In this document: positions 6,237 through 53,830 of the stretch, in pieces
Numbering within the stretch: the stretch's first letter is position 1
Layout: the number at the start of each line of letters is the position of its first letter
From: Pomacea canaliculata
Taxonomy: Eukaryota
Reading direction: 5' to 3'
Assembly (NCBI RefSeq): GCF_003073045.1
Contig: NC_037595.1
Span: 8,700,345-8,764,344, forward strand
Length of the DNA: 64,000 nucleotides
Made by a program: the position numbers and the translations under genes
The notes under the pieces: model-generated
The model's database searches: none
What the model saw: only the letters and a program-made list of their open reading frames with translations
What the model was told of the DNA's origin: nothing

Positions 6237-6546
6237 CTGGAAAATGGGATAGAAAGGAGAGTAGTCGATGAAGGCGGTCACAGGTGTTCAATGGGGTACT
6301 CATGACGGCACTTACACGTCAAAGACGAGTGTGGGTAAAGAGATGGGCGCGCACATCTCCATTGCATCAAAGATAGGATGAAGATTTTACAGAAGTCTGA
6401 GTAAAAATGGTCGTTTGAGTATGTAAAAATTGTTGGAGATAAGTGTGTGTTTACAAAGTAGTATGCGTCTGGCGTTCGTTACAAGTACTCACGAGAGTAG
6501 CGCTCCTGAACAAGCAAAGACAATAACATTTTACACATGCGCGCAC

Positions 6547-7610: not shown

Positions 7611-7786
7611 CACCCCTTAATCAATCTCTTCTAACGGTGTAAAACAAATTTAAGTCAAATTTAAGAGTCATTCACTCAACTTGATCATGGCAATGAGGTC
7701 GAAGTTTGCAACATACATTGCGCTTCGTTTTTCCCCACCGCTCTCTCTCACTTCTCCTCTCCTCCCCACCATACACAACCGCTCAC

Positions 7787-8104
7787 CTTGTCCTGGCGGT
7801 CGTCGTGGTAGGCGGAGAAGACAGCCAGGCCGTCCATGACCCTAATTAAAGTGCTTTTGCTATAGTCTAGCGCTTTCTTCTTTTTCTTCTTCACGGCCGA
7901 CAGCATGTCCTGCGACTGCAAGCGGTCTCCAGCGGCGGTGGTGTTGTCTCTGTCAATCCTCATGATGTCGTCGACCAGGCGAAGGCTTGTCCCATTTTGG
8001 ATTATATCCACTGTCGAGATGATGTCGAACACCTGCCTCTCTAACTGCAGTATCCCTTCCTCTAGGCCCTGTAGTTTCACGCGTGTGTCTTCTACGCTTG
8101 GCAC
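7787..8104 (-). CDS. GT92 copy 1, coding exon 2
   Basis: Acceptor is cctgccag|GTGCCAAGC, phase 0. Translation runs VPSVEDTRVKLQ...LAVFSAYHDDRQDK. Donor is AAG|GTGAGC. It sits within minus ORF 7748..8104. Confidence 0.6.
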
Positions 8105-8789: not shown

Positions 8790-9050
8790 TTTAAAATTAA
8801 ATTATGTTGTGTCTTGTTAAAGTGAGTGGGCTGGATGAGGCACCCGCGCAGGCCGTACGTTGGGCACCCTGGCTTAGCCTTTGTGAAGTTCTCCGCTGTT
8901 AGGCTCGGCGAGCCGAAACAATGAATGTGACTAAACCGGATGCTTTGTATATTATACACCAGCCCCGTTTTAGTAGTAAACTAGAAAAAAATGTCTGCCA
9001 GCAGTCATGTAATACAAGTTCGTTGTGACCAGGGCCGTGCTTAGGGGCAG
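8790..9050 (+). repeat. Interspersed repeat family 1 (SINE/MITE-like), copy A
   Basis: Shares ...cttgcgaagttctccgctgt(t/c)...ctcggcgagcc.aaacaa..aatgtgactaaaccgga.gctttgta...acaccagcc.cgttttagtagt...aaaaaaatgtctgccagcagtc.tgtaatacaagttcgt with copies at 38330 and 52770. The three copies give pseudo-ORFs with the shared peptide FRFSHI.C.GSP.LT.ENF. Confidence 0.6.
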
Positions 9051-17300: not shown

Positions 17301-18545
17301 GGGAGAAAATTTATTTCTAGTTATCCATGCGAAGAAATTTGATTGTCTGACAGCAAACAGAAGTTATACAAATCTTACATGAGTTCGGTCGGCCAGCTAG
17401 ACTGACCTGGTCTGGACAGTGTAATTTTAAGTGGTAAGGAAATGGGAAACAAGCTGTGGGTGCAAGGTCTGGAAAGGATTTTGAATATTTTATTCTGAAT
17501 GTTAAAAGCTTGCATTCAAAGTCTTCTATAAATGACAATTTCTTTGTGAATGGAGCTCTCTAGATTCTGTCACTCAGGTGTTATTTAATTTCCGGAATTG
17601 ATCGCTTTCTTTCAGTCCCAGTAACTTTCCTTTTCACAAACATTTAAACCAGCAAGGGAAAAGGACAATGTGATGAAGTAAATGACGAATGCGATGAATT
17701 TTACACTTCAACACACTTCACGGCTGATGTATAGGCAGTGTATTGATCAGACTTCTTGCCCTCCACATATTTGCTGCTCCATCTGACAGAAAGGCGGACA
17801 CGATGACTTCGCAGATGAGAAAGATTTTCCTCGAGAGAGTGTGACGCACAATTCATCCATCCATCAATAAATTCTAGGGAATTATAACACCGAGACTTAC
17901 TATTGCCCTCGTAATGCCTGAGCACCCGTTGCACTACCTCTGAGGTGGAGAAGTCGTAGAAGAAGATCTGCTGAACACCCAGTAGCCGTGTGAGTTCCAG
18001 AAACTCCACAAGTCGCTTGGGGCTCACGGAGCCAAAGAGTGGGGAGACACAGATGCTAAAGTTGTAGGCGAACTTGTCTGTGCTGACCTGGACGGACACC
18101 AACGGGTACAAGCCATGATGAGTAACCTTTTGACGGAGGGGTATCGAGTATCCTCCTCTTTACTGCCGCAAAAGGACGCATTCGATCAGATCGTTAAATA
18201 AAAAAACAATCTTTCCAAAATGATGAGAAAAGCAGTTCTTCTTCCCAGAATGCTTCATAGTATCTGTTGTTTGTGGTTATTTATCTGTCTCTTTCACACA
18301 AAAACATACAGAGGAGTCAATGCTAAGCGAACACAAAAACACAGAAATATGCTACGTCACAGACCTTTTGACCGGAAGTGACTGGTGGCGACACACGTTG
18401 TACAGGAACCGGAACTTGCCTGTCGTTGCTAGACACGTGCGACACCGCCAGCGTGTAGTCCAGGTGGCGCCCCAACGGCACAGAGCAGGAGTAGATGAAG
18501 CCGAGATATGTCTTCTTGTGATTCTCGCACATCTGCAACATCGAT

Positions 18546-18585
18546 GTGAAATGAGTGAGTGGTGAGTGGGTGAGTGGGTGAGTGA
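18546..18585. repeat. (CACTCAC/GTGAGTG)n microsatellite abutting exon 4 acceptor of copy 2
   Basis: gtgagtgagtggtgagtgggtgagtgggtgagtg. The homologous copy 1 position has unique sequence. Confidence 0.8.
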
Positions 18586-18814
18586 AGGAAGTCACAGGTC
18601 TTAATACGTCACTTAATGACGTCTCTCTGATGTCATGGACAAGACTGCGTAACTGAGATTGGCGCGCGCGTCTCGCTTTTGTTGAATACACTTTGAAGAG
18701 TCCATAGTGAAAAAGTATTAAAAAACATTGTGGAGATACTGGGTTGTTATTTTGTTTCGTGCTCGAGAACTCCAATAGACGTACTCACGACAGTAGTGTT
18801 GTCGAAGGAAGTAA

Positions 18815-19090
18815 AACAACCAACCAACCAACCAACCAATCAACCAACCAACCAACCAACCAAACAAACAAACAAAGAAGCAAACAAACAAACAAGCAAG
18901 CAAATCAACAAATAACAAAAACCAAAAAACCCAACAAAAAACAAAAACAAACCCCCCAAAAAAACAAAAACCTAAAAACCCAACAAAACTCCGAGATTTA
19001 AAAAAAATCCCAACAAAAAAAACAAACAAAAATCAAAACCCAAAACAAAAAACAAAACCAAAAACAAAAAAAACAAACAACAAAACTCCG
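18815..19090. repeat. (CCAA)n/(CAAA)n compound microsatellite, ~280 bp, in intron 3 of copy 2 only
   Basis: Direct reading gives ccaaccaaccaacc...caaacaaacaaacaa... It is absent from the homologous copy 1 intron (6237-6546). Confidence 0.9.
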
Positions 19091-20201: not shown

Positions 20202-23200
20202 CACCTCCCCCTCACCCGAGTCCCACACAATACCCGACCTCTCACCTCCTCCTGACGGTCGTCGTGGTAGGCGGAGAAGACAGCCAGGCCCTCGCTGACC
20301 CTGATGAGGGTGCTGTTGGTGTAGTCCAGAGCTTCCTCTTCCTCCTCCTTTTTCAAGGCGGACAACACGCCCTGCGGCTGCGACTGGGCTCCAGCGGCGG
20401 CGCTGCTGCTTAGCTCCCTTTGTTGGTGCGGCCCACGCGTCTTGAGAGCGTCGAGCAGGCGGGCGCGCTTCTCACCCAGGGCTCGCTCTGCTAGTGAGAT
20501 CTTCATGTCGAACACCTGCTTCTCCAGCTGCACCATCCCCACCTCTAGTTTTGCAGCCGCTTGTGCACATCCACCGCGCTTCGCAGCTGGATGACAGGTT
20601 TAAAAAAAAAATGGGAAAGGTCATCTCGTGACCTTACGGTTGTTGGGTTATGGTACTGACGCCATTTCTCACAGAGAAAATATTTTTTCGAGGCGACACT
20701 TATCTTGTCTCATTTGGTCATACACTTCCAAACATTTCAAGTTGAGTTTTAGACAAGGTTTTTTTTTGTTGTAAAAATGGAAAGGTAGTCATCGTGACGT
20801 GAGGTTAAGTCATTGTATCAGTGTAAAACATAGATATCAAGGGTAAACGTTTTGTCTCCATAGTTATATCTAGACTACACGGATACCTTCACCCCTGGGG
20901 TTATAGTTTTAAAGCAGTGGTAACGATGCCACATAACATAATGAAAGATCTGTAGGTTTGTGAAAATGCGTCAAATTTTACAAAGACAAGTTTTTTTCCT
21001 AAATTTGTCAACTTTGGCCTCCGATCAACAACTTACCGTTGCTTCATAAATACGACTCCAGATATATCACAGAACAAGGCAGGACGAACGAAAGAACATA
21101 GAACAGAAATGAGGGTCGGATGAAAATCCTTTACCCGGTCTTACCCATCGAATGGTGTCGTTGGCGGCGTCGTCTTCAGCTGGGTCGTTGTCGCGGACCA
21201 TGACGGGGATCTTGCGGTCATCGACGGCGGTGCTGCTGCTGGAGGGGGACAGCGACTGATGGAAGAGCACGAGCACGATGGCGTACACGACGCAGAGGAG
21301 CATGAGGGCCCGCGAGCAACGAGCCATGGCCACGCCGCCCCTGCTCAGAGAAACACCAATAATATTGTCACATGATTGATAGAAGAAACCACACTTCAGC
21401 CAAGTCTACTTTCAAACTGAATCACTGATTGTGGAAAAGAGACCGGCTGTCGGCGATCAGACACACCTGAATGAGCGGTGTCTTGTTGTCCCCATCCATC
21501 ACACCTTGTCGGACAAACTTATCTATTTTTGTGACTCACATCGTGTTTATATATGCTACTATTTCTGTCACTGGTAGTGAATGCACTTTAGGTCGATCAC
21601 TTTTACAACACTTGTTCTCCGACCCCTTCCTTCCCCTGTGAACAGACTGAAATTTGTGACCTTTAACCCTAAATATCTCTTTAACAAATTTGTTTTAAGG
21701 GTACATTTGAATGACTAAATAAATATATATCGCTGTTTATAATTTGTTTTGTTTTATCAATGCCTTGATGTTTCTTCTCGATTCTTTATTTCTATCCAGT
21801 AACCTTTATTTTTAAGAGAGAGACCATCGTAAGCAATAGATTATTTCAAGACATTTTGTTTTAAAAGAATACTTTCTCGCAATGTTTTGAGTAAATCGTT
21901 ATAATAATCGTTTATAATCGACGTTTTCCTCCCGACTCTCACCTTCTGTTACCTTGGTCGAACCTGAAACTACATTTATTGACACTTCATGCCACATGCT
22001 TTTCAAAAACGGCGAAAAAAAAAATTAAAATTAATTTTACGACACCTGACCCACATGAGGGGGTCGAACTTTAAGGCACATGTTTCTATATAAAAAGTGA
22101 TTACAGCAGAATATACTTTTTATAGACATGAAAATATTGCGGTATTTGCTACACTTTGTAAACCTTGTCAGAGAGTTTTAGTCAACCTCACCTGTCCAGG
22201 AGTTATCGACCCTTGTTTTGTCGAAAATCCACCTTTTCGTACTTCCTACGTTTAGGAGATTTTTTTTTTCTAGCATCGGCATACGAACTCCGGCTTTTCC
22301 CCTTTATATCTCCTCCTTTCCCCGGGATGTTCTTTGGAGACTAAAACTGTTATCTTTGTTATCTGCCTATCGTTGCTCCAACTTTCTAGTCCAGCCAGGG
22401 TGACTGTCGCCTCCTGATACCTTTTATCATTAGAGAACCACAGCTGTCGTTTCCAAGGTAACTACGTTAACTTGTGTATCAAGTTTCTATCTCACATCAA
22501 CGTAGTATTCACACCATGTGTGCAACTTCAATATTTAACACTTGACATCAGACGATCATCGATGCAGTAGACCACCACCCCTAGCCTTAAGTCCATTCCT
22601 GATGAAACTTTCCCAACCTACTCTTTCCAGCTTTAGGTGCTCTTCCTTGATGACAAGAGGTAACATGTGAACAATGATGCTTGATGATGTGATAAAGTGC
22701 ACATCATCGGAACAAGCTCTAAGAAATGTACATAAAAAGTGATGAGAAACACAGAGGACATGTAAACATGTGATGCTTGATAATACGATACAGCATGCAT
22801 TTGCGAAATAAAATAGGAAATGTTCTGATCAAAAACAAAACAAAGCGAGGAAAACAGCAAAAGTCATGTTAAGATGATAAGGCTTGATATTGCAGTTTTA
22901 TGAGCTGGTAAAAATGTAACAGCAAATCAACAGAAGAGCCAAGAAAAGTGGAGAAATATTACGAAAGAATCACAAAATAAGACATAAAAAATTCCGAAAT
23001 ATGGGGACAATGTTACAGAAGCATGAAAACAAAGTTACATAAACATGACCTGAGAAATAAGTTACAGGTAGACCCGTGGTACGTCACTGCGAAGGGAGAT
23101 AATAAAAACCTTTCGGGGCCAGCTTGTTGAATGGAGGGGGATGCCACTCCCCTTCTCCACAGAAACAGAAACATAGAAATATTGTACAGCCATCGACTAC

Positions 23201-24314
23201 GAGTGTACACATAACGGTACGCCTACCCAGCTTCAAAGCCGGCGCCTTTCAACTCTGATGGTGTGGAGGGGGAGGGGAGGGATCAAAGAGGTGGACCGTC
23301 TCTCATTAAAGCAAGAAGGTCACGATGGTTTAAAACACACACACACACAGAGAACACATCATACATCTACCCTCTGATGTGGAGGAAATAATTTTCCCTT
23401 CATTGCTTTTGTTATTCAATGACAATATCATTTGCTCGTTCAACGTTACTGAGCTCTTCACAGTGATGTGATTTATCTCCCAATAAATAAGAAGATGCTA
23501 GAATCCTGTGTCAGGGAGATTGGTGAACTCAGTAAGAAGGGTGAAGATGGATGTCGACGTGCTTTTAGCGAATCAGGACATGGTCAACCGACAAGAAGTG
23601 ATCATTAAGTCCAGTACTGCCGGACAGACCTTGCTGTTTATAAATCAAGGTTGATAGATATACATGCTGGGGTATCTACACTTAGAACTATCGTCAACAG
23701 ACGTTTATTAAATTTTGTTGAAATTTGTCAGAGACCTGACATCTTGGAGAAATCAGTGGGTCCCAAACTAAAAAGTTCGAAGCTTACTGAGTCAGGTAGC
23801 ACAGTACGAAGGTGGTACCTATCCGACCTCACCTTCAGATAAGGAGTGTACCAGGCTGAGGGCTGTACAAGCAGGTAAAAAGAGTGTAAAGGTGTGTACC
23901 TGATCATACCTACAGGTGAGCGTATCGTGAAGCTGAGACTTGCGATGGCAGATGGTGATGTGAGGTCACCTGTCCGCTCACAACCTTTGACCTGCTTATT
24001 GGGACGTGTACAGCCGCTCTCACCTGCAACAAAGTGCACGGATATTGTAAAGATTCTCACATGGAGAATACACATAAATACATATATGAATACATACATT
24101 CACGTAAAACATAATCACACACACACTCATAATGTACACCACACGAATAAACACATACAGACATGACTACATCAATGCAGCATCTGAACACAAAAGCATA
24201 AGGAATCGAGATTATCTGTACAAGGTGTAGTCCTTAATCTTAGTTTAACTTACGGAGGAAATGGTGAGTGTTGAAGGAATGGGAAAAACGAAAAATAGAG
24301 AATAACCTTTCTGC

Positions 24315-24375
24315 AAAAAAAAAAACAAAAAAAAAAAAACAAACAAAACAAACAAACAAAAAACCCCAAAAGACA

Positions 24376-24413
<38 letters not shown>

Positions 24414-24447
24414 AAAAAGAAACCCCCAAAACAATAAAAAAACAACC
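24315..24447. repeat. A-rich (CAAA)n low-complexity tract
   Basis: aaaaacaaaaaaaaaaaaacaaacaaaacaaacaaacaaa... directly read. Confidence 0.9.
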
Positions 24448-25546
24448 GGTCTGTCGGACGGACCGATTTCACCATGGATGACTCAAAACGAGGAGAGACA
24501 AACACGCCCAGCGGGGTGGGTTGGGTGTCAAAGGCCACGTCACCAACCGACGACGAACCGACAGCACTTAGGGGCTCGCCAACTAAGGGAACAGGGTGCG
24601 TGAGTAAAAGTCAGGGCCACCAGAGAGTTCTCGACAGTGTCGTCTGCAAGTGCTTGTCAGCCGTGAGATCTTTGACGACCGACGAGTGAGGGGAGAGTAC
24701 AGACACTCCTGTGGAGTAACGATGTAAATCTGTCAGCTGTCCATCTTGACGATGTGAAGAGGACCGTTCCGAAATGAAGAGTATGTACTTTAGGGACCAT
24801 GGTGTCTGCGGGGTGTCTGTGTCTCTGACATAAAAACACACACACACATATTTGAGGCAAGTACAGGTGGACAATTAGCTTCGTTGCCTATCTTTGCCTC
24901 CTGCCCTTTATACATTCACACATGTTTCAAATAGTTTGAAGGATCTGCGCGGGCCCTCTGGCCCTTTAATGAACAGACAAAATATAAAAACGCGAATCGC
25001 CACCGTCTTAAAAGAAATATGTTGGAGCGACACGTGACCTCGCATCCTCATTGTAGTCGTCATCGTTTTTTTTTGTTTTTTTCATTGTGCACAAACATTT
25101 CCTTTATTTATCGCTTACTCCATCTCTTTTTCAGATATGTGCATTAGGTAGTTTCCTGTGCAGGTAGAACAACATGTCGGGATAATCCAGGATAATAAAT
25201 CATTTTGGGATCACCATAAATAATTAGAATCGATAAGTTTCTCTAAGATAATCGGTCATCTGGGATCAGTATAAAATAAATAAATTAAACCGACGCTCGT
25301 CTTGAGTGATAACATATTCTGGCTTTAGACAAACGGCGCGTCCTGTCCCTTAAATGAAAGGACCACCTGTTTGTCTACCTGACCAGCTGTCGTTGATTGC
25401 GTCCTCAAAACCCTAACAGTTAGCTTTTAAATTAGTTATTAATCATTTTATTAGTAAATCAACAATATTCCACGTGTCTCTCTTTCATATTTCAGCAAGC
25501 GGTTGGGCAAGATAATTCATGCCTCAAGATAAAATCTTGACTTTTG

Positions 25547-27906: not shown

Positions 27907-28466
27907 GGGGGAAGTGATTGCACGCGCAACTGGCGAAATGTAAACGTGTCATGTAGCTAAGACCTTTTCTCCATTTAGAGGAAAATAAAAGTTGAAAATA
28001 AAAATGCCACAGCGCCGTTTAAAAAAATTGAACAAGCAGTATAAAAAAATCTAAAACAGGAAAACAATGATCAGATTGTACCACGGTTCATTTTTATTCC
28101 ACATCAGCACACACATGTTACGAGTTCATTAAAATATAAAGAATAGTCCCATGAGATATAAAACACACCTGTCATTCAATGTACGCACACACACACCCAC
28201 CCATACATGTACTTAGAAACACACACACAGTTCTCTCTCTCTCTCACCGATACCATGGCGACATTGCAGAGGCAGAAAAACGTTACGACAGTTGCAAGTG
28301 GGTGTTGCTACGTCAGGACAGCTTGCAAACTGTTCACACTGTCATCTTCAGCCACAGTGTGCAAATCATTAAAAAATACTTTGAAGCTAAACAGGAACAT
28401 TTCCACCCTCACCCCACGAGTATGTGATGGTGTATGCCGGAGCGCCCAAACACACTAACACACTAA

Positions 28467-28493
28467 CGCACGCACGCACGCACGCACGCACGC
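28467..28493. repeat. (ACGC)n microsatellite
   Basis: cgcacgcacgcacgcacgcacgcacgc. Confidence 0.9.
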
Positions 28494-28789
28494 AGATGGT
28501 TTCCTCAAACCATCCGTTAGCCACGTTCCGGACAGATTCTCTAAGATGTGAAGATCTGCTTGTCATCGAGGCCAGCCAGATGTGGATCTTGCCGACCATT
28601 CACTCTGCCACAAGTAGTGGTGCGATCTGACATTAATAGGGGTTTCCCGGACTCGGTGTGGCCCTAGGTGTCGCCACCGGTAGCTGTGTTGTCGACCCTA
28701 AGAGCCCTAATCGCGTTTACTGTACGCGCGCTGAAAGCGACTCGGCGCGAGGAGCCAGCCACGACCTGTAACTAATCGATGGCGTGCAG

Positions 28790-29480
28790 ACGTCGAGCTT
28801 TCAAAGACCAACGGACCAAAGCCTCTCAGGTCCAGACACATCAACGGCTCGGTATTGGAGGCTCAGATGGACAACAGGCAAAAGTCGTTCGTGTGCAGAC
28901 GGACTAAGGACAACGAAAAGTCTTCCACGCGAAGACAGAAGTTCTGCAGGTTCTGACAGTCGAGTGGCGGGATGTCTTTGAGGTTTAGACAGAATGATTG
29001 TGGGTAATCCTTCAAGCTCAGGCCGACAAACAACACGAGTGTTTTGGGTTCTGACAGACATAACGACTCCAAGTCTTTCAGGTTTAGGTAGAAATATGGA
29101 GCAAAGTCCTTCGCTTTCAGGCAGACCAAAGGGGCAAAGCCTTTTACTTTTAGATAAACCAATGGAGCAAAGTCTTTCAATAGTGAGAGTCTTTCAGACA
29201 AAAATAAGCAAACAAACAAACAAACAACAAACAAACAAACAAAAAAAAAAAAAACGAAAAAAAAACCACAAAACAAAACAAAAAAAAAAGCAAAACAAAA
29301 CAAAAACAAAAAACCAACACAAACAAACAAAAACGGCAAGATGCATTAAAGGTTCAAAGAGGACCAACATAAACCTCTGGCTTCCACAGACCAATGGAGC
29401 AAAATAGCTCAAGTTAAATTAAGACAGAAGATTAGAATTCTTTTCTTTTCAATGAAACCTAGGAGCGAAAGCTTTTCGGT
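28790..29480. repeat. ~33-bp degenerate minisatellite (about 12 units) interrupted by a 140-bp (CAAA)n tract at 29195-29335
   Basis: Recurring unit ...accaa(t/a)ggagcaaagtc(c)tt(t)c...tttcaggc/tagac... every about 33 bp. Reverse-strand pseudo-ORF 28863..29339 shows an 11-aa periodicity (LKDFAPLV.L/LNLKD...). Confidence 0.7.
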
Positions 29481-38246: not shown

Positions 38247-38277
38247 CGCGCGTGTCTCTGTGTGTCTGTGTGTGTGT

Positions 38278-38308
<31 letters not shown>

Positions 38309-38332
38309 AGTGTGTCTATCTCTGTGTTTGTC
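38247..38332. repeat. (TG)n/(TGTC)n microsatellite
   Basis: cgtgtctctgtgtgtctgtgtgtgtgtgtgtctgtgtgtgtgtgtgtgtgtgtg... Confidence 0.9.
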
Positions 38333-38600
38333 TGTGTGTGCGCGGACGTGTATAGGTGGACTGCTGTCTGTCTACCGAGACCAACACTTAGCCTCTTGCG
38401 AAGTTCTCCGCTGTCGGTCTCGGCGAGCCTAAACAATTAATGTGACTAAACCGGAAGCTTTGTACACACCAGCCTCGTTTTAGTAGTTAAGCTGAAATGT
38501 GACTTTTACCGGAAACTTCGTATACACCAGCCTCGTTTTAGCAGTTAACTGGAAAAAAAATCGTCTGCCAGTAGTCCAGTAATACAAGTTCGTGGGGTAT
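38330..38600 (+). repeat. Interspersed repeat family 1, copy B (with internal ~50-bp subunit duplication)
   Basis: Reads tgtataggtggactgctgtctgtctaccgagaccaacacttagcctcttgcgaagttctccgctgtcggtctcggcgagcctaaacaattaatgtgactaaaccggaagctttgta... The subunit ccggaa.cttcgtatacaccagcctcgttttagcagttaa is repeated twice. It ends in gtaatacaagttcgtgg and is preceded by a (TG)n microsatellite. Confidence 0.6.
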
Positions 38601-40040: not shown

Positions 40041-41315
40041 TTGACATATGTGACGAGAAAATATAGCCGACCAAGCAAATAAAAAAAGATAAGAGAGAGA
40101 GATAGGGGGGACGAAAAAAAAATGAAAAAAAGGAGATGACAGGCTGCTTGGACTTCATGGTGGAAAATTTGCAGGGATGGGAATCCTCTGATGTGGCTGT
40201 GGCGTTCCCAGGTCAGAAGGCGTCAGATCTGATGTGCTTCACACGAAAGCCCAGGACTGGCTCACTGCATAGCAAGAAAACCAGGCGGCACATTCCCGAC
40301 AGAGGTCTGCCCACCCTGCTGGCGCCGCTTAACTCGCCCATCCCTCGCTGTTGTAACCATCACACAAGTGGACGGTTGGATGGATGCCTCGGTTTCAGCA
40401 GCTATGATATCCCAAAAGGATAAAAACCCATTACTGAATAAAGTTTTCTTTTTGTGTGCTTTGCGGCAAAGGGTTAGATCATGCGTTCCACAAAGTGAAA
40501 CACAAAATTGTGTGCAAGAAACAGAAAAGCCTCTTTTTATATAAATAAAATATACAAACCCCAATAAAAACTACATTGAAATTAGTTAATTTAACCTTGC
40601 AGAAAGTACCGCTACCAGAATTCGTCATTGGTCTTGCTTTTGGTGAGTGGAACTGTCGCAAGAAAAAAAATGTCCACAAAGATGGCAGCAGGAGCACAGA
40701 CATTTCAGGGATCGAGATCATAGAAGACAGAGGTGAAAGGTTGCAGCCGCCATCAGCAGGCAGACGACGTCGTTGATGAGCTTCGCGAATTCCACGCCCC
40801 TCTCCAGATGTCAAGATGTGTGCAAGATGGCGGGCACGGCATCTCCGTACGAAGTGCGCATGGGCGGTGAACGGTCGTCTGCGTGACGTAGACACGGCGT
40901 GATGTCAAGTGCTGCTGCCAGTCAGCCCCACAGTGGGAGGAGGAGGAGGTAGAGACGCTGGCATGGCTGAGAACTTGTTTGTCAGAGAAAACAAGAAAAG
41001 AAAGAAATGAACCCCATACCACCCCACAAAACAAAGAAAGAAAAAAAAGAAGAAGAAAAAAAAAAGCCGCTGAGCCTGCCAAAGGCTGAAAAGAAATGTG
41101 TCACTCGACTCAAAGTCAATAAAGGATGGCTCTCCATTAGTTCTTTTTCGCAGACGTCAGTCTCTTATTTGAGCAGCGAAATGTCGTGCAGCCATATCGT
41201 GAAAAGCCCGGATGTTACAGAGCCGCCATCTTTCAGGCGCTCGTGTCTTTTGACGTCCTCGATGACAGCTATTTATTTCTCTTTTTTTCTCGGAGAAGAC
41301 GCAGCCAACACGCAA

Positions 41316-41360
41316 AGAAATAAAATAAAATAAAAATAAAAAATAAAAATAAAAATAAAG
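41316..41360. repeat. (AAAAT)n microsatellite
   Basis: aaataaaataaaataaaaataaaaaataaaaataaaaataaag. Confidence 0.9.
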
Positions 41361-42663
41361 CGAAATACAAAACAGTGGATTGGACAGTTTGGAAGTGTAT
41401 AGTCTTGGAACACGGGACTAGATTTAGGGCGCATTGAAGCAAGCCATGGAGGTCTGAGAGGGAAGGAAAGTCTGAATCGATGAATAAGGGGGACAGAAAA
41501 GATTTCAGGGCTGGCGACTTACCGTCAGGTAGAGGGCCGGGCGTATATTGATATACACATAAACTCTTTAGACTTCATTGATGTCTCCTCCTTGTCGAGC
41601 AGGGCCCCGATCCTATCGACTTCAGGACGCCGAGGGTTAATGAAGGCCGAGCGCGAGGACCTCGGCCTCCCAGACTTCTTGTCACGCTAACCAGGACGTC
41701 TGGCATCGATAGATGGTCAGGTATTACAGCGGTAATGGCGACTTTGATGTTAGGGTGCTTGCAGTCAGCCGGGTGGATGGTGTGCGTGAGATGAGGAAGG
41801 AGGTCGGGGTGGAGGAGACAAGGTGGGGTATCAACTACTGACCACACACCACCCAGTAATTGCATTAACATCACAAGCCTGTACCTGAAGTTTATGGATT
41901 TGTTTTTCTTCGCAATGTGTTTTTACATCAGTATTTAGTATACTTTAGTATTGTTTCCTTTAAAGTGGTTACTGGTGAGCTCAACTCAGCCCTGAAAACA
42001 CACAAACAAACAAACGTGTGCGAGAGGAGCGGAGGGATTTCGAGGCCTGTGATCAAAAAGGCGTTCGCGCTTTTCTAAAAACTACACCTGACATTCGACC
42101 TGGCGGAAGAAATTTAATCACGACTTGTCTTAAAAAAGGTGATAAATGTGTTTCTATTGAAGAGAGTTCAGGGCGATAAAGATTAGACATTTTTGAAAAT
42201 GGACAGTGGTGTGGAAAGTTCTTACACACACACGCACACACTCACGCACTCACGCATTCACGCGCACCTATAGATCACTAAGGTAAACAAAAGAATGGAG
42301 ATTCTCTCGTGGGCTTGTAAATGCATTAACGGGACACACAAAATTAAGAGGCTGAGAGAGAAAAAGGGAAAAAGGAGAAAGAGTCAAATAAAATTTCCTC
42401 TTAATTTCTTTTTCGAAATCATAATATCTTAATCTCCTTTCCTCACCATACTACTTGAAATAATCACATCTCACCATTCCATGTGATGTAATCCTGCATG
42501 GAAATAATAAAGTATAACAGATGGAACACGGGAGTGCAATAAAGAAGTTGGAGGACACGTGTGATTGATGACAGTGATCTCACACTGCACGTGGCTAATG
42601 TCCATCAACATTTACAGTTACAAAGCTTGGTCTCACACAAATGCACGACCTGGAGAGAGAGCG

Positions 42664-42723
42664 ATGACCACTGGGTTCATAGGATGACCACTGGGTTCAT
42701 AGGATGACCACTGGGTTCATTGA
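42664..42723. repeat. 21-bp perfect tandem repeat x3
   Basis: (gatgaccactgggttcatag) x3. Confidence 0.9.
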
Positions 42724-43615: not shown

Positions 43616-44399
43616 TTTAAAAAAAATGTTGGTAATACGCTGAGCAGAAGGCAGCTGAAAAATCTTATTCAAGAACATGAAGTACAAGCCGGAAATGAAG
43701 GGCACCAGCATCCGTCGTCAACACATGTGGTCTCCCTTTCCCTCTCCCCTCGATACACAGATCTTCCCACTTCCCAATTCTTTCTTAATCATCTCATCAC
43801 TCACTCCCTTATTATGCGTGTCCACATCCCCCATCCCATTCCCACTACAGTGGAAAAATCCCCACATATGGAAATATTTTACCGGAAAGAAAAAGGAACG
43901 GAAAATTACGTGAAGAGTTTGTGATATTGTATTTTTATGATTTGTCTTAAAGAATACAGTTGTATGTCACTGTGTGAAGAGTTGACAGCATTGTATCTAT
44001 TTACTTAATGAATATAGTTATATCTCATTGGATGACGTGTTATCAATACTTAAAGTCCCATGCACTAACTGCCCACAAATACCCACAAATCCACACCGAT
44101 GTTTGTAGTCAGATGAGATAAACACCGTTCATTGCAAAGCAAACGACAGAAATTCTTTATTTGGACAGCTGCTCCTGTCTGTCGTCCCGTTCCCTCCCTC
44201 TCTCGTGTCTCACCCACCCTGCTCAGTGCTCACCCACACCCCGAGCGTTCAAAGCAGACGACTGGAGGCGTTTACTTTGATTGCGTCTCGGCGTCTGGGA
44301 GCGGAATCTCTGACTGTGGCGTGACAGGTGTCACAGACACGTGACAAAAATTACTACGTGCCGCTCTCTCTACGGACCAATCCCTCTCCTCCCCCAACT

Positions 44400-45960
44400 T
44401 CTCCCAGTCCGCCATCTTGACAGGCAACAAGTTGTCGCCCCTGAAGCGCGTCGTGCTCTGAGGTCTGTGCACGGGGTAGGTGGGGTACTCGTAACACCCT
44501 CCAAAGTGGTGAAACGAATTACACTTAAAAAAACTTCTTTTATGTCCGTTATTAATGTCTCAAACATAAAATCGCAAGAGAAATATGCTCAAATCTCTAT
44601 CCGGTCAAAAAAAAACCTGGGGTGACGTCACGCTTGGACATGCCAATGGTCTGCTCCTGGTAAACCTGGTTAAATACTGCGACTGTGCTTTTAGTGTAAA
44701 AGTTGGGCAGAAAACTCGAATATTGAAAACTCAAAGCAAGAATAAGTGTTTATACTTTCTAAACTGACCTGACATGGATGAGACAGCGGGTCGACTTGGT
44801 TTGTGTATACCGACTTCATAGCATCTTCTCCAATGGCTCGTACCTACTGTACAGGTGAATGCATTTCTTGTCCAGCAACACGACAATTTTGCCCGAAACA
44901 TTTCAGTGTTTGTAGTATTATTCTCTCAAAATCCTGTCAAACAGTGATAAATATAAAATTAACCTTTTCATCCTTACGTGTCTCGTAAACAACTCAATGC
45001 CACGTGAGGGGGAAAAAAAAACAACCCCGAGGAAATTCAGACTGTTACTGAAGAAAAAAGATTCGTTGCATCGAATTATATATTTTCTTATCATATTATT
45101 CTTCCTTGGTAGAGCTAGAGATTAAAATCTTACTAGAAATCCGACACATTGCTAGGACCTCCGGCCATTTGCATGCGTGGACTGGCAATACAACGGTGAC
45201 GTAGCACGTTATTCTCGCAGGGGAACGAGATGTTGTAGGACTATTTGATGACAGGTGCAAATCGCCAGCTTTGATAGATAATAATAAATGAACTGGATTA
45301 TTTCAAGCGCTGAAATTTACAGAATTTAACTATATTGTCTCCACCTTCCTGAACGTCTGTGAAACGTGAATCACACGACTGAGTCTTTCAACTCCGTGGT
45401 GTAAACGAGAAGATAAATATTGAATATCTCGTATGATACCACATGACAGAATGATAGGGCGAGAGTCAAATACTCAGCTATATCAGTTAGATGAAGATGA
45501 CGATGATGATGGTAATAATCATTATTATTATTATCTCTTGCTGACGCATATCTGCCGAACTGGATTTGCATGAAGAACAAATGTAGTAAAACTATTTTAG
45601 CTACTTCGTGACGTCACATTCATATAATTCATGCAAATATGGATAAATAATTACAACCGTTCTACATTTATTTCAATATTCCGTCTGCACGCTTCAAAGT
45701 AAAGAATGAAAAAGCAAGGAAACATCGCAAAACCCTTGGAACAGAAAATAGAAAGTTTAGTCTGGATTTTTTTCCTGTCTTCATGGTGATGTCCTATCAT
45801 TCCGGTAATACAAAAAACTGTCTTTCTCTCTCTCCATCTCTCTTAAAACTAGAGCCTGAGACTGCACCGCTTGTTGTATGACAAGATACTATCTACAAGA
45901 CGCTGACTGAGCGCCATGATTTAAGATGGCGGCCCTCTTGAGAGGATCTGAAAACCGTTG
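44400..45960. promoter_or_regulatory. Candidate bidirectional promoter / regulatory module (paired divergent YY1-like motifs, CRE palindromes, octamer motifs)
   Basis: CAAGATGGCGGAC sits on the minus strand at about 44404-44416 and AAGATGGCGGCC on the plus strand at 45921-45932; both match the YY1 core AAnATGGCG. GCGCCATGA lies adjacent at 45908. TGACGTCA perfect CRE palindromes occur at 44623-44630 and 45608-45615, with CRE-like TGACGTAG at 45209. ATTTGCAT occurs at 45167 and 45563, and ATGCAAAT at 45631. CCAAT occurs at 44647. Assignment is motif-based only. Confidence 0.35.
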
Positions 45961-46089
45961 CGGAAGTCTGACGGTCAATCACTTAAATCGGTTTCACACG
46001 CTCCTCCTTCCCACTTCCCTTGTGTTTACGGGAGCGAGGCTGTTGTCGTGCTGTCGTGTAGTCTGTCGGCGGTCGGTAAATATATCAAA

Positions 46090-46166
46090 GAGTTAAGGAA
46101 GAAAGTTAATAGCCTGCAGGAGAGAGCGAAGGTCCAGGGTGAAAAAACTGTTCTGGACATTTATCG
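46090..46166 (+). other. Candidate plus-strand exon ending in consensus donor (unknown gene)
   Basis: Open frame ...SAVGKYIKELRKKVNSLQERAKVQGEKTVLDIY runs from plus ORF 45958..46176 and ends at ATTTATC|GTAAGT. A pyrimidine-rich acceptor (ctgtcgtgtag) lies upstream at about 46070. No homology was recognised. Confidence 0.25.
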
Positions 46167-46184
46167 TAAGTTCTAGTTTGTTTG

Positions 46185-46290
46185 GGCTTTTTGTTTGTTT
46201 GGTTTTGTTTTTTGTTTTTTGTTTCTGTTGTTTGTTTTTTGTTTGTTTGTTTGTTTTGTTTTTTTGTTGTTTTGTTTTGTTTGCTTCAGA
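46185..46290. repeat. (TTTG)n microsatellite (~100 bp) immediately 3' of a consensus splice donor
   Basis: gtttgtttgggctttttgtttgtttggttttgttttttgtttttt... Confidence 0.9.
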
Positions 46291-49200
46291 TTTTATATTT
46301 GAAGAGTAGAGTCTTTCGCTTCTCTGATAAATAAAGAAAATGATAAATCGAGTTTTAATTGTTTTTTAAAGTTATACTTTCAGAGTTGTGACAGGTATCA
46401 GGATTGAATGAAAGTACATATAAAATAGTTTTATTTAAGAAAGGGAAACTTAATAATGCCTTAGTCGTCAGTCTATTTTCCAGTCTAGAAACCAAACCTG
46501 CTCATCGCCAGGACAGAAAGGACAACCTTCATCCACTGGCAGGCAGTTGGCAACCTTTCTCTCAGTTCTCCTGATTACGTATTGTCAAGTCGTTTGTCTT
46601 TCTTCTTCCTGCTACAATTCCCCCATTTACCTCCGTCACTTCGTCATGGCCCACCCTCCATTATCCTCCATGTGTCCCCCACTTCCGCCTGGCTATTCGC
46701 GCAGAAATTTCTCGCAACAATGTTTCAGTCACCTTCACCTTCCTTGTCGTTGTCCGTGGAGTTTATTTCTGAGGGTTTTTAAATTTTCAAGCAAAAGCTA
46801 CTGACCATTGAAATATATCTTTCTTTCGTAAATAGTTGTTTTCTTTTTTCCAGAGCTCATGTTTTCCGAATCCATTATTTATCGCGCGGTCGGAGGCCCC
46901 AGGGCGGCCGGATTTTCGCGAGACGACTGTGCCTCCCGCAAAAACGTGATTTAGTGCCGCATCCAGTTTAGGGAAACAGACTCATAAATAATAAAATAAA
47001 CATTCGTTCTTCACCATCCGCTGGGAGTCTTGAATTCTGCTCCCTCTCCCTTTCTCTCCCACCAACCTCGCTCGCTCCCAGGTGGCGCTGGTGGTCGTCT
47101 TGCGATTTCTAGGATTCTCCAAGGTGCCGATGCTAACAGCTTTTTAGGAATCTACATGCTAAAAGGAAAAGGGATGGAAGAAAACTACACAAACAAATTT
47201 TTGTACAGTCTTTCGTTCTCGCTTGGAGACAAAGGGGCGATGATCAATCTGGATTATTCACCCCACACGCGCACGCGCGCACACACACACACCAACACTG
47301 AATACATTTGCTAATTTGCTACAGAGCTACAATCAGTCTTACAGAGAGGTGAGCAGTCTGATCTCCGATTTAGTTTCTTTGGTGATTACAGGGTAACATG
47401 TTGGAAGTATAAAGAAACTGTACTGCAAGTGATTTCAGGTGATACATGTTAGAGCAAGTGTGCAACATAGTGTTGAGTAATCGTGCACTAGTCTGACGTC
47501 ACGGTAGTACACGTGTATTGCAAGTTCTCAGCATGTGCATAGTGAATTGGAAATATTCAGCAAGTATATTGTAAATATGCGTGAAGTGTCCACCAAAATG
47601 CAGCAAGTATCTCTCAAGTGTACAAGAGGCCACATCACACGACACCTCAATCATCTACCCTGAACCCAACATTCGTGGCGGTTTTCCGGACGACACCTCC
47701 ATCAGAACGCCAGCATGGGTAGAGGAGTGGTCTTCACGCAGGCACAAATGGCTTTTCCTGAATATTCATTAGAAGGGAATTGCTGGGCCCCTGCCAGACG
47801 AACATCCAGTGACAGAATATGACATTTTCTGTCCGTCTGGGCCCGGCACGCAAATATAAGGCACACGTTAATTATGCCATCGATTGTGGCCAAAGCCCCG
47901 GCTGTTGATCATTTCACATTTTATTCTCCCCAATATTATTTCTCAAGCTTTGCTGTTATCTACTACCAAACCCCCCTTCCTCATCCCGAGAAGCAGTAAC
48001 AGATCAGTAAGGAAGTAAGGAAGAAAGAATAAGGAAATCCAACAAATCTTTGCAGGAAAGGAATTAAAAATAACATGACTAGTAGGCTTGGGTCGGAGGT
48101 TTTCTTGGTTGAAGTGTAGAGTGAGGACTCTTCATCGAATAGTCGATGTATGGAGGAGAGAAAGAAGATTCTACAGAGCTGGACGTGCCTTGTCCGTGGG
48201 GGGAAAAATAAATGGCTAAATGGATTTCTTGTTTCTAGCAGAAGCGGTGGAGCTTGATGTATCTGAGAGAGAAAGAAAAGATTAAATTAGAAAAACAATT
48301 GAAGTATCTCTCTCTTGTGTGTGAGCGCTCCTGTTTGTATGTGTGTACGCTTACTTTTGTTTCTTGAGCTTCTGTGTTTTTTTTCTGATAATTTTTGTGT
48401 TTCTGGTTATTTGTTGAGTGTTTGAGTATGCTTCCATGTATACTGTTCGTGTGCATCAATGTCTGTTTGTATTTCTCTGTGTGTTTGCGTGTTTACAGGA
48501 CTTGTTTGCGTGTCTGTGCGCGTGCGTGCGCGTGCGGCGATTGTCATCCAGGGATGTATGTGCGGCGCAGCAAGGTTTTATCTCGCATGGGATGCGCTTG
48601 GAAATGAGTCTGTATGCGCAGCGCCCTCCCAAGGGAGTCGCAAAGCTCAGGACCAAATTTGCTTGATGTCATTTTTCATCCCCGAAAGCCCTGCGTCCCT
48701 CTGGACGTGTCTGTTGTCCTTTCTATCAGTCATTACAATTTTTTCCGGCCACCAGGCGGCGCTGTGATAAATGACACGAGAGACTGCGCGCAAGATAAGG
48801 GCTTTGCAAGGAGCGTGGAAGGTGATTAATCAGGTGAGGGTAGAGTTAGACTACAAGCCATTAGAAGGGTTTAAATAACGGCGAATTTGTTGCAGGAGAA
48901 TCACTATTTCCTCACTTTGATCGATGGTGTGTAAGTGCGTGACACAAGCACAAGAAAAAAAAAAGGAGAAAACTCTCTAGAGGCCTTGATGGCTTCGTAA
49001 AAGGACCTGTGGAATACCCCTTCAATGGTGTCACTTCAAGTTTACGATTCATGGCGAGTAGCTGCCTCATCAATCATTGTACCCGGGGCCTGGTCTTCGC
49101 ATCAGGTCAGAAAACACGGAGACTGGCCTCTCTTGTTCGGATACAGGGTGCGTTGGTGTTGGATTATTCATAATGCGGGTGTTTGGTTACTAGTGTGTTT

Positions 49201-52200: not shown

Positions 52201-52769
52201 TGTTCAAGAGAAAGAGAGAGACCCGTCATCACCAGAGTAAACGATGAACAAGGAAGACAAGAACATGGCAGGTGCTAAGCAACCTGGCAAGAGTAGGAAG
52301 AATTATGTTTCTATCCCCGGTAGAATCCGAACAAATAGCAAGGAATCGCCGCAAGGCCGACATCCTTTCCCCATTAAATAATAACAAAAATCTCTTTCCC
52401 TAGATATGGTTTACAAGTGTGTAGACAGACGGAAGGAAGGACGCAGACAGCTCAACAAACGGACAGGTGTCTATCGAAGATAAGTAATCCCCGGGAGGGA
52501 CAAAGAAAAACAGGTAGAGAGCAGGGAGGAGTGTGTCTCTCAGTGTCTGCAGCTGGAAGACTGACTAGCAGAGCTGTGAAAGTCACTCCTGAGGGGCTCT
52601 TTCAATCTTGCCGCCAAGTGAGAGCTTGTCTGCCCTCGTGTGGTCCTGGCAAGTATGTTCGCCCATCACATGGTGTCGCCACCGTCAATCACAACCAGTC
52701 GCCAGCCCAGGGGCTGATCGATGGACTCCATAGAAAGTGTTTCCACGAACTTGTATTACTGGACTGCTG

Positions 52770-53000
52770 GCTGACGATTTTTTTTTCAGTTAGCTACTAA
52801 AACGAGGCATGAGACTACAAAGCTTCTGGATTATTCATATTTCAGATTAACTACTAAAACGAGGCATGAGACTACAAAGCTTCCGGTTTAGTCACATTGT
52901 TTGTTTAGGCTCACCGAGACTAACAGAGGAGAACTTCGCAAGAGACTGTGTTGGTCTTGGCAGACAGACAGCAGTCCACCTATACACATCCATGGTGTGT
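52770..53000 (-). repeat. Interspersed repeat family 1, copy C (reverse orientation, also with subunit duplication)
   Basis: Reverse complement of 52770-53000 aligns to copy B, including ccatggatgtgtataggtggactgctgtctgtctgccaagaccaacac and gtctcggtgagcctaaacaaacaatgtgactaaaccggaagctttgta. Confidence 0.6.
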
Positions 53001-53699
53001 TGTAAAGGTAGTGAAAGTCTGCTCGGTGTATGCGTGGGTGGCAGGAGGATGGTGGGTGAGAGAGCGAAGACAGAAAGAGAAGGAACATATCAGGGAAGGA
53101 GGCTGGCAATGGCTGTCGGCGCTCTTTGATAGATCGAGTTGTTATCACACAAGGCACAACGATTCCCGTCTTAACAAACCATGGAAATAACATTCCTATT
53201 AATTATAATTGTCGTCTGCTTTTGTTTACATCTGTTCAATCGGTGATTTCAACCATGATGACGGGAGGCCTACTTCATGAAATAGTGTCATGTGACTTAT
53301 GTCTTTCTTCCTGAACTCTGTGTCTGTTCGTCTGTCCAATCTTTTGTCTCTTCTCTTCTTTTATCTTTTTCCCTCTCTCTTTCCATCTATCCAGGCTCCC
53401 CAACCTTTGACATTCGTTTAGAGCGAAGGGAGTTATTGCAAAATTCACTTAGAAATCCAACTTGTAAGCTCTCCTAATGGACAATTTTCTTCACCATTTT
53501 CTTTAGAATACCTACTGCTGGCAACAGAGTGACAGAAACTTCCCGAAAGAATAACTCCCTGATCGAATCCATAACCGCTGATTTTATGGAAAATAGCGGG
53601 CAGGAGAAATGAAATTGTATTGTTGGTCCGGAATCGATGGCGAGCTTTTCTCTCTTCGCCGCAGCTAAGCCATTGTTTGAAAAAATCTTTGAGCCAGAA

Positions 53700-53830
53700 A
53701 CAAGCGGAACAATGCTCTCTCTCACACACACACAGACACACACAGACACACACAAGCACTCACACACGCACACACACACACACAAGCACGCATACACACA
53801 CTTGCAGCATGCACACGCGCACACAACAAA
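53700..53830. repeat. (CA)n / (CACAGA)n CA-rich microsatellite
   Basis: ctctcacacacacacagacacacacagacacacacaagcactcacacacgcacacacacacacacaag... Confidence 0.9.

What the first reader, a model, noticed from the sequence alone, without database searches (positions are those of the whole stretch)
44400..46170. Divergent YY1-like motif pair with CRE palindromes and octamers: candidate bidirectional promoter feeding a plus-strand exon with a perfect donor
AAGATGGCGG, the YY1 core AAnATGGCG, occurs on the minus strand at about 44407 and on the plus strand at 45921, with an inverted GCGCCATGA beside the latter. Between them lie two perfect TGACGTCA palindromes (44623, 45608), three octamer motifs (ATTTGCAT at 45167 and 45563, ATGCAAAT at 45631) and a CCAAT box. 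Downstream on the plus strand an open frame (..AVGKYIKELRKKVNSLQERAKVQGEKTVLDIY) ends exactly at a consensus GTAAGT donor at 46166. On the minus strand a short ORF starts at the YY1 site (MADWEKLGEERDW...). A third TGACGTCA lies at 47493. The 8-bp palindrome is expected about once per 64 kb, so three copies within 3 kb is a mild enrichment. This is the best candidate in the window for a promoter of genes not otherwise recognisable.
Basis: inference. Interest (0 to 1): 0.5.

Follow-up and report, generated by a model that had tools for sequence, protein, structure and literature searches.

The report
Snail YY1/CRE promoter-like motif island
In this golden apple snail sequence, a 1.5-kb unmethylated-looking island bounded by two outward-facing YY1/TISU motifs and filled with CREB and octamer sites is a statistically real regulatory cluster, most likely a pair of promoters, but no protein-coding gene or exon could be found on either side, so it is an ordinary and unproven promoter candidate.

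Summary
The window is Pomacea canaliculata (golden apple snail): RefSeq protein XP_025097306.1 is reproduced exactly by four exons at 5733→3243(−).

The cluster is not chance. It has 7 sites in 1.6 kb, against a simulated maximum of 4. AAGATGGCGG occurs 4 times against about 0.06–0.2 expected.

All four copies match 11/12 positions of the vertebrate TISU/YY1 element.

The 44.0–46.15 kb interval is one of the three most CpG-preserved stretches in the window. The other two are the 5′ ends of the two recognisable genes. AT-skew also flips sign across the interval.

The exon claim fails as coding evidence:
- The open frame has no ATG.
- The motif ATG is in another frame and stops after 56 codons.
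- The donor is perfect only on its intron side.
- Pfam, PDB and three searches of a database that holds this species' proteome found nothing across about 34–63 kb.

Best reading: head-to-head YY1/CRE-type promoters of non-coding or unannotated transcripts. Rival: a YY1 architectural or enhancer element. This is a new instance of a known kind, of low to moderate interest.

The parts
44408..44419 (-). YY1/TISU-like element CAAGATGGCGGA (11/12 match to SAASATGGCGGC), facing left
45922..45933 (+). YY1/TISU-like element TAAGATGGCGGC (11/12), facing right
45911..45919 (-). Second, inverted YY1 core (GCGCCATGA, read as TCATGGCGC) 3 nt upstream of the plus-strand element
44623..44630 (.). Perfect CRE palindrome TGACGTCA (extended TGACGTCAC), about 205 bp from the 44409 element on its upstream side
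45609..45616 (.). Perfect CRE palindrome TGACGTCA(C), about 310 bp upstream of the 45923 element
45197..45204 (+). CRE-like TGACGTAG. This 8-mer occurs 7 times in the window against 0.85 expected. It is preceded here by a MYB-like CAACGG.
45167..45174 (-). Octamer ATTTGCAT
45564..45571 (-). Octamer ATTTGCAT
45631..45638 (+). Octamer ATGCAAAT
45961..45967 (+). ETS-like CGGAAGT, 29 nt downstream of the plus-strand YY1/TISU element
44001..46150 (.). CpG-preserved island: CpG o/e 0.95, against 0.70 and 0.76 in the flanks. It is among the top 3% of 2.15-kb windows.
45926..46096 (+). 56-codon short ORF opened by the motif ATG (MAALLRGSEN...ISKS*). It has no homologue and is probably a leader or short ORF, not a gene.
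44272..44415 (-). 47-codon short ORF opened by the motif ATG (MADWEKLGEERDW...QSK*), with no homologue
45952..46173 (+). Most likely open by chance.
46166..46171 (+). Candidate 5' splice site ATC|GTAAGT, consensus on the intron side only (PWM score 1.55, about the 95th percentile). It is followed directly by a (TTTG)n microsatellite at 46171-46286.
47494..47501 (.). Third CRE palindrome TGACGTCA(C), 1.57 kb downstream of the plus-strand element
40823..40834 (+). Missed copy: CAAGATGGCGGG (11/12 TISU). Its ATG opens a 19-codon ORF. TGACGTAG lies 60 nt downstream (40884).
41222..41233 (-). Missed copy: AAAGATGGCGGC (11/12 TISU). Its ATG opens MAAL*. ETS-like CCGGATGT lies at 41208 and CRE-like GGACGTCA about 25 nt upstream.
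40746..40757 (-). Weaker YY1 core GCTGATGGCGGC (10/12). It faces away from the 40824 copy, whose 10-mer starts 77 bp to the right of this core's start.
40601..41600 (.). Second CpG-preserved island: o/e 0.93, against 0.58 and 0.70 in the flanks

Best explanation
The interval 44.0-46.15 kb is a germline-unmethylated regulatory island in the Pomacea canaliculata genome. It most likely carries two head-to-head RNA polymerase II promoters.

Each promoter would be marked by a YY1/TISU-type element that sits just downstream of its transcription start and points in the direction of transcription. The inferred starts are near 44.42-44.45 kb (leftward) and near 45.89-45.92 kb (rightward).

The 1.5-kb spacer between them carries proximal activator sites: two CREB/ATF palindromes, a TGACGTAG variant, three POU octamers and an ETS-like site.

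The transcripts are most likely non-coding, or carry only short ORFs of 47 and 56 codons from the motif ATGs. This would resemble TISU-initiated lncRNAs such as vertebrate Cyrano.

A similar smaller island at 40.6-41.6 kb, with three to four YY1-type sites, probably does the same job.

Shown: the motifs, their enrichment and clustering, their outward orientation, the CpG preservation, the skew switch, and the absence of detectable coding sequence.

Inferred: YY1, CREB and POU binding, the start-site positions, and transcription itself.
For: - Four perfect AAGATGGCGG copies against about 0.06-0.2 expected. All lie within 5.1 kb, have unrelated flanks and are not in any repeat family.
- All four match 11/12 positions of the TISU consensus SAASATGGCGGC.
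- Seven canonical sites fall within 1.6 kb; the simulated maximum is 4.
- Literature. In human, TISU/YY1 lies at +5 to +30 in a single orientation. In 36% of human cases its ATG is not the start codon (PMC2518114). In coral and Nematostella, YY1-family, CRE-palindrome and NFY motifs form the constitutive-promoter repertoire within +/-200 bp of the TSS. The Cyrano lncRNA starts with a perfect TISU and a 2-3-aa ORF. The 41223 copy here opens MAAL*.
- CpG o/e is 0.95 in the island against 0.70 and 0.76 in the flanks (p=0.004). The three highest 2.15-kb windows start at 20351, 44851 and 5951; the first and third are the 5' ends of the two galt-1-like genes.
- AT-skew is +0.10 left of 44409 and -0.09 right of 45923. 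The sign matches that of the known minus-strand gene.
Against: - No transcript evidence of any kind could be obtained.
- No coding exon was found on either side. YY1-type constitutive promoters usually serve housekeeping protein genes.
- The CREs and octamers lie 200-340 bp from the inferred starts, further out than a core promoter.
- In the second cluster, the 40824(+) and 41223(-) copies face each other 400 bp apart, which is awkward for a simple promoter model.
- The donor at 46166 is unexceptional, and an AATAAA follows at 46330.
- The skew calibration on the known genes is weak, +0.03 to +0.07.
Confidence: 0.5

Rival explanations
1. The island is an architectural or distal regulatory element. 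Clusters of YY1 sites would act as loop anchors, domain-boundary elements or enhancers inside a gene-poor stretch or a long intron. Any transcription would be incidental and enhancer-RNA-like.
For: - In annelids, which are fellow spiralians, a YY1-like motif is enriched at TAD boundaries and loop anchors. These are mostly intronic or intergenic, and stripe anchors are 1.7-2.3-kb accessible regions carrying YY1 motifs (preprint 10.64898/2026.05.18.725834).
- All eight GATGGCGG cores in the window lie between 34 and 57 kb, in mixed orientations, where no coding exon was detected.
- The 40824(+) and 41223(-) copies face each other.
- The first AATAAA follows 257-407 nt after three of the four copies, which would give short unstable RNAs.
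Against: - The extended 11/12 TISU match is the form described next to transcription starts, although it is also simply the high-affinity YY1 site.
- The strictly outward orientation of the 44409/45923 pair fits promoters.
- The CpG island and the AT-skew switch extending several kb on each side suggest sustained germline transcription away from the island.
- No Hi-C-derived information specific to this locus or species motif was found.
Confidence: 0.22
2. The island holds promoters of real protein-coding genes whose coding exons were missed. The exons might be too short to appear in open segments of 30-45 aa, might have been removed by my low-complexity filter, or might lie beyond the window after long first introns. 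The 45.92-46.17 kb segment would then be a non-coding first exon.
For: - Composite queries used only stop-to-stop segments of at least 30-45 aa, and some low-complexity segments were dropped.
- A plausible 43-nt plus-strand micro-exon with a good acceptor and a TTG|GTGAGT donor lies at 40602-40644, showing that short exons would escape the search.
- In 36% of human TISU genes the TISU ATG is not the start codon, and the median 5'UTR of those genes is 192 nt.
- No composite query contained a sequence known to be in the database, so none had a working positive control.
Against: - Three composite searches covering both strands of 40.7-53 kb, plus the downstream directions to 34.2 kb and 63.2 kb, found nothing at E<=0.01. 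The database holds this species' RefSeq proteins.
- Pfam found nothing in the open segments of the plus strand 45.9-51.5 kb or the minus strand 41.25-44.43 kb.
- Exact look-ups of six window ORFs found no record.
Confidence: 0.15
3. The cluster has no function: chance co-occurrence of short words noticed after the fact, or decayed remains of retrocopies or transposons that carried TISU-type 5' ends.
For: - At least 14 other 10-mers in the window have equal or lower p-values, mostly from repeats.
- The motif set was selected post hoc.
- CCAAT is not enriched, and octamers are not enriched window-wide.
- There is an A-rich run about 220 nt downstream of the 40824 copy.
Against: - The 10-mer is a pre-specified, well-known element, so it needs little multiple-testing correction.
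- The four copies have unrelated flanks and belong to no repeat family.
- The cluster coincides with independent compositional signals, CpG o/e and the skew switch.
- No homologue of any retrocopied gene was found.
Confidence: 0.1

Closest known systems
[quoted passage not shown]
   Same: - All four window copies match 11/12 positions.
- The copies of the reported pair face outward, as expected for an element that works in one orientation just downstream of the TSS.
- The ATGs that do not open long ORFs match the 36% class of human TISU genes and the Cyrano lncRNA case (PMC7798263).
   Different: - The position relative to a TSS is unknown here.
- None of the four ATGs opens a recognisable protein (ORFs of 56, 47, 19 and 4 codons).
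- The organism is a gastropod, where the element has not been characterised as far as my searches show.
- No housekeeping gene is attached.
Conserved metazoan constitutive-promoter repertoire (YY1-family + NFY/CCAAT + CRE palindrome within +/-200 bp of the TSS) described in the coral Pocillopora damicornis and in Nematostella (preprint 10.64898/2026.09.10.745915)
   Same: - A YY1-family motif occurs together with perfect CRE palindromes.
- The DNA is CpG-preserved.
   Different: - CCAAT is not enriched here.
- The CREs are 200-310 bp from the YY1 sites.
- The octamers are not part of that repertoire.
- No chromatin marks or expression data are available for this locus.
Bidirectional promoters of animals (divergent TSS pairs less than 1 kb apart)
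   Same: - Two outward-facing promoter-type elements share one CpG-preserved intergenic region.
- The 40747(-)/40824(+) pair, 77 bp apart, fits the classical spacing.
   Different: The reported pair is 1504 bp apart, beyond the usual definition. It is better described as two head-to-head promoters.
YY1-motif loop anchors and TAD boundaries of spiralians (annelids Owenia fusiformis and Dimorphilus gyrociliatus; preprint 10.64898/2026.05.18.725834)
   Same: - Clusters of YY1-type motifs lie in 1-2-kb non-coding intervals.
- The setting is gene-poor, intergenic or intronic, in a lophotrochozoan.
   Different: - No contact-map evidence is available here.
- The annelid motif logo centres on the CCAT core, whereas the full extended motif is present here.

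Membership tests
TISU / promoter-proximal YY1 element | Sequence match to SAASATGGCGGC | tested here: met
   Four copies match 11/12: 45922-45933(+), 44408-44419(-), 40823-40834(+), 41222-41233(-). Consensus taken from PMC9658832 and PMC2518114.
TISU / promoter-proximal YY1 element | Strict location +5 to +30 downstream of a mapped TSS, in the sense orientation | not testable with these tools
   No CAGE, RNA-seq or annotation was accessible. Only the outward orientation of the pair is consistent with this feature.
TISU / promoter-proximal YY1 element | [quoted passage not shown] | tested here: not met
   The ATGs open ORFs of 56, 47, 19 and 4 codons with no homologues. This is compatible only with the 36% non-initiating class.
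TISU / promoter-proximal YY1 element | Bound by YY1 and required for transcription | not testable with these tools
   Needs ChIP or EMSA and reporter mutagenesis.
Bidirectional promoter | Two divergent TSSs less than 1 kb apart | tested here: not met
   The two 10-mers of the reported pair are separated by 1504 bp. The missed pair 40747(-)/40824(+) would meet the spacing, but its TSSs are unknown.
Bidirectional promoter | Annotated or detectable genes on both sides in a head-to-head arrangement | tested here: not met
   No coding exon was detected on either side. Non-coding genes could not be tested.
Constitutive (CpG-preserved, unmethylated) invertebrate promoter | Local CpG o/e peak relative to flanking transcribed DNA | tested here: met
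   CpG o/e is 0.95 against 0.70 and 0.76 in the flanks, MWU p=0.004. The interval ranks with the 5' ends of the two known genes.
Constitutive (CpG-preserved, unmethylated) invertebrate promoter | YY1-family + CRE + NFY motifs within +/-200 bp of the TSS | tested here: inconclusive
   YY1 and CRE motifs are present and enriched. CCAAT is not enriched. The CREs lie 205 and 310 bp from the YY1 sites. The TSS is unknown.
First exon with 5' splice site | Strong donor and coding continuity from a start codon | tested here: not met
   The donor ATC|GTAAGT scores 1.55, about the 95th percentile of all GT sites. The open frame lacks an ATG, and the motif ATG frame stops at 46094.
YY1 loop anchor / boundary element | Insulation or loop anchoring in contact maps | not testable with these tools
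   No Hi-C data were accessible. The only paper found that used P. canaliculata Hi-C gives no locus or motif detail for this species.

The most novel reading that the evidence does not exclude
The two YY1/TISU clusters (40.6-41.6 and 44.0-46.15 kb), together with four further GATGGCGG cores spread over 34-57 kb of non-coding DNA, could form a YY1-dependent architectural hub. Alternatively they could be the bidirectional promoter of a long non-coding (for example piRNA-precursor-type) transcription unit in a mollusc. Either way, the TISU element would be used at the 5' ends of non-coding RNAs outside vertebrates.
Probability: 0.2. Interest if true: 0.45.

Novelty: new member of a known kind. 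Interest (0 to 1): 0.22.

Why it matters
If confirmed, this locus would be one more example that the YY1/TISU + CRE promoter vocabulary, worked out in vertebrates and recently seen in cnidarians, also operates in gastropods. It would also show the element heading transcripts with no protein-coding capacity. That is useful for annotating promoters and lncRNAs in the genome of an invasive snail that is becoming an experimental model, but it does not change any current view. The practical lesson for the scan is that perfect AAGATGGCGG copies combined with local CpG preservation look like a cheap promoter flag in this genome.

Tried and rejected
1. Coding exons. Pfam was run on all open segments of at least 30 aa on the plus strand 45.9-51.5 kb and the minus strand 41.25-44.43 kb, with no hits. 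Three composite searches of the 5.8-billion-protein database found nothing at E<=0.01.

2. Control exon. The control exon I added (7748-8104) also failed. This turned out to be because the RefSeq isoforms start further downstream and the only other relative aligns over 24 aa. It was a poor control, not a tool failure.

3. Exact look-ups. Look-ups of six window ORFs, and of the RefSeq proteins P0001 and P0151, in the contig collection found no record. The annotated gene neighbourhood therefore could not be retrieved.

4. RNA genes. No Rfam family reached the gathering score in the window. At E<=1 in 40-48 kb there was one noise hit, WT1-AS_5 at E=0.5. No tRNAs were found. An snRNA-type octamer/PSE gene is therefore unlikely.

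5. Repeat origin. The interval belongs to no repeat family.

6. A supposed promoter vocabulary. I first took the ETS + TGACGTAGC + GTGGCGAC combination at 6.05 and 18.35 kb as an independent promoter vocabulary. I rejected this because the two sites are paralogous copies lying inside a conserved coding exon of the galt-1-like genes.

7. Donors and poly(A) signals. The pattern of donors and poly(A) signals downstream of each motif copy did not discriminate.

8. Individual peptides.

9. Environmental contigs. A metagenome scan for the 22-mer spanning both YY1 cores gave 0 hits.
Full report
**Source of the window.** The DNA is eukaryotic: about 42% G+C, CpG o/e 0.78, microsatellites, and no tRNA or Rfam hit. 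An ORF at 17704-18111(−) matched XP_025097306.1, 'beta-1,4-galactosyltransferase galt-1-like isoform X2 [Pomacea canaliculata]', at 94% identity. That exact protein is reproduced at 100% by four GT–AG exons at 5733→3243 on the minus strand. The window is therefore golden apple snail, and this species' RefSeq proteome is in the protein database I searched. The left 25 kb is a tandem duplication of this gene with a period of about 12.4 kb.

**Checking the observation.** All listed motifs are present within 0–2 nt of the stated coordinates.
- AAGATGGCGG lies at 44409–44418(−) and 45923–45932(+).
- The inverted GCGCCATGA lies at 45911.
- TGACGTCA lies at 44623, 45609 and 47494.
- Octamers lie at 45167, 45564 and 45631.
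- CCAAT lies at 44377, 44643 and 44830.
- GTAAGT lies at 46166.
- Both described reading frames exist.

**Statistics.**
- The 10-mer occurs four times in the window against 0.06–0.22 expected, depending on Markov order.
- TGACGTCA occurs five times against 0.8–1.3 expected.
In 400 simulated sequences the maximum was 4. Even with the 15 observed sites placed at random, P<5×10⁻⁵.
- CCAAT is not enriched, and octamers are enriched only locally.
- The motif set was chosen after looking at the region, so these figures are somewhat optimistic.

Two more perfect copies of the 10-mer lie at 40824(+) and 41223(−), with weaker cores at 40679(+) and 40747(−). All eight GATGGCGG cores in the window lie between 34 and 57 kb. 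The four perfect copies have unrelated flanks and lie in no repeat family. They are therefore independent occurrences, not duplicates. Each matches 11 of the 12 positions of the vertebrate TISU/YY1 element SAASATGGCGGC.

**The exon claim.** This part does not hold as coding evidence.
- The ATG inside the motif (45926) is in another frame and stops after 56 codons, inside the supposed exon.
- The donor is ATC|GTAAGT: consensus on the intron side, but C at −1. With a generic donor matrix it scores 1.55, about the 95th percentile of all GT sites. The three true donors of the galt-1-like gene score 3.9, 3.6 and −1.0, so the score does not discriminate in this species.
- The ATGs of the other three copies open ORFs of 47, 19 and 4 codons.
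- Neither the peptides nor any other open segment has a Pfam domain or a credible PDB relative.
- Three composite queries found nothing at E≤0.01. Together they covered both strands of 40.7–53 kb, the minus strand down to 34.2 kb and the plus strand up to 63.2 kb.
- Exact look-ups of window ORFs found no record.
- Caveats: only open segments of 30–45 aa or longer were used, some low-complexity segments were dropped, and the control exon I included proved uninformative. Very short exons could have escaped.

**Independent sequence signals.**
- CpG o/e is 0.95 across 44.0–46.15 kb, against 0.70 and 0.76 in the flanks (Mann–Whitney p=0.004). It is 0.93 across 40.6–41.6 kb, against 0.58 and 0.70 (p=0.018).
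- The three highest 2.15-kb windows in the whole 64 kb start at 20351, 44851 and 5951. The first and third are the 5′ ends of the two galt-1-like genes.
- In molluscs, expressed gene bodies are methylated and lose CpG while promoters do not (established knowledge). The pattern therefore fits an unmethylated island flanked by transcribed DNA.
- After masking microsatellites, AT-skew is +0.10 over 41.3–44.4 kb and −0.09 over 45.9–49 kb. The window mean is +0.04±0.06.
- The sign of the skew on each side corresponds to T>A on the strand that would be transcribed outward. The known minus-strand genes show the same sign but only weakly, +0.03 to +0.07. I count this as weak support.

**Literature context.**
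- TISU is a YY1 site at +5 to +30 from the start, in one orientation. In 64% of human cases its ATG starts the protein. In 36% it does not, and the 5′UTR is then of normal length (PMC2518114).
- The vertebrate lncRNA Cyrano starts with a perfect TISU, a 2–3-codon ORF and strong YY1 binding (PMC7798263). The 41223 copy here opens MAAL*.
- In a coral, and by citation in Nematostella, YY1-family, CRE-palindrome and NFY motifs within ±200 bp of the start characterise constitutive promoters (preprint 10.64898/2026.09.10.745915).
- In annelids, YY1-like motifs are enriched at TAD boundaries and loop anchors. These are mostly intronic or intergenic, and include 1.7–2.3-kb accessible anchors (preprint 10.64898/2026.05.18.725834).
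- I found no promoter-motif or contact-map statement specific to this snail.

**Interpretation.** The most likely reading (about 0.5) is two head-to-head promoters marked by outward-facing YY1/TISU elements. They share a 1.5-kb CpG-preserved region with CREB/ATF, octamer and ETS-like sites, and drive non-coding or short-ORF transcripts. A similar island lies at 40.6–41.6 kb. Because the two elements are 1504 bp apart, this is not a classical bidirectional promoter.

The main rival (about 0.22) is a YY1 architectural or enhancer element. It is favoured by the gene-poor setting, the mixed orientations of the eight cores, the facing pair at 40824/41223, and early AATAAA signals.

Less likely readings are promoters of protein genes with undetected exons (about 0.15) and a non-functional coincidence (about 0.1).

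**Verdict.** The promoter interpretation is partly supported. The coding-exon element is not supported. This is a new instance of a known kind of element and of low to moderate interest. Expression, chromatin or comparative data, all publicly obtainable for this species, would settle it.

Noticed in passing
It has perfect 10-mers at 40824(+) and 41223(-), and weaker cores at 40679(+) and 40747(-). TGACGTAG lies at 40884, ETS-like CCGGATGT at 41208, and the interval has its own CpG-preserved island.
   Followed up: partly
window 1-25000: Tandem duplication, period about 12.4 kb, of a GT92-type galt-1-like galactosyltransferase gene on the minus strand. RefSeq XP_025097306.1 maps exactly to 5733->3243. 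Upstream N-terminal exons that align to a full-length relative (P0005) exist at about 6180-6242 and 7796-7867, and at about 18383-18571 and 20207-20326. The RefSeq isoform may therefore be 5'-truncated.
   Followed up: partly
window 28300-28800: The most CpG-dense stretch of the window: 35 CpG per 400 bp, 56% G+C. It contains an (ACGC)n run at 28466-28490, TGACGTAGCA at 28306 and GTGGCGAC at 28670. This could be another promoter-like island.
   Followed up: no
window 38260-38600 and 52740-53800 (also 8881-8949): Inverted copies (85-88% identical) of a dispersed repeat. It carries a 58-nt internal tandem unit and adjacent (TG)n, and is probably a transposable-element fragment.
   Followed up: no
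window 40602-40644 (+): A possible 43-nt micro-exon on the plus strand: acceptor ttaaccttgcag| and strong donor TTG|GTGAGT. It suggests that short exons could exist in this region undetected.
   Followed up: no
window 1661, 18350, 28306, 45197 and 6081, 18385, 28668, 35020, 52673: Two other non-repeat 10-mers are over-represented: TGACGTAGCA (4 copies against 0.06 expected) and GTGGCGACAC (5 against 0.17). Some copies are paralogous and lie inside a coding exon of the duplicated gene. The others are unexplained.
   Followed up: partly
window 42663-42720: A perfect 20-nt tandem repeat, 2.9 copies, unit GATGACCACTGGGTTCATAG, inside the putative leftward transcription unit.
   Followed up: no
window 46171-46286; also 18814-19088, 24255-24463, 29157-29375: The same imperfect (TTTG)n/(CAAA)n microsatellite family recurs four times. 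The copy at 46171 starts immediately after the GTAAGT and inflates the T-richness downstream of the candidate donor.
   Followed up: yes
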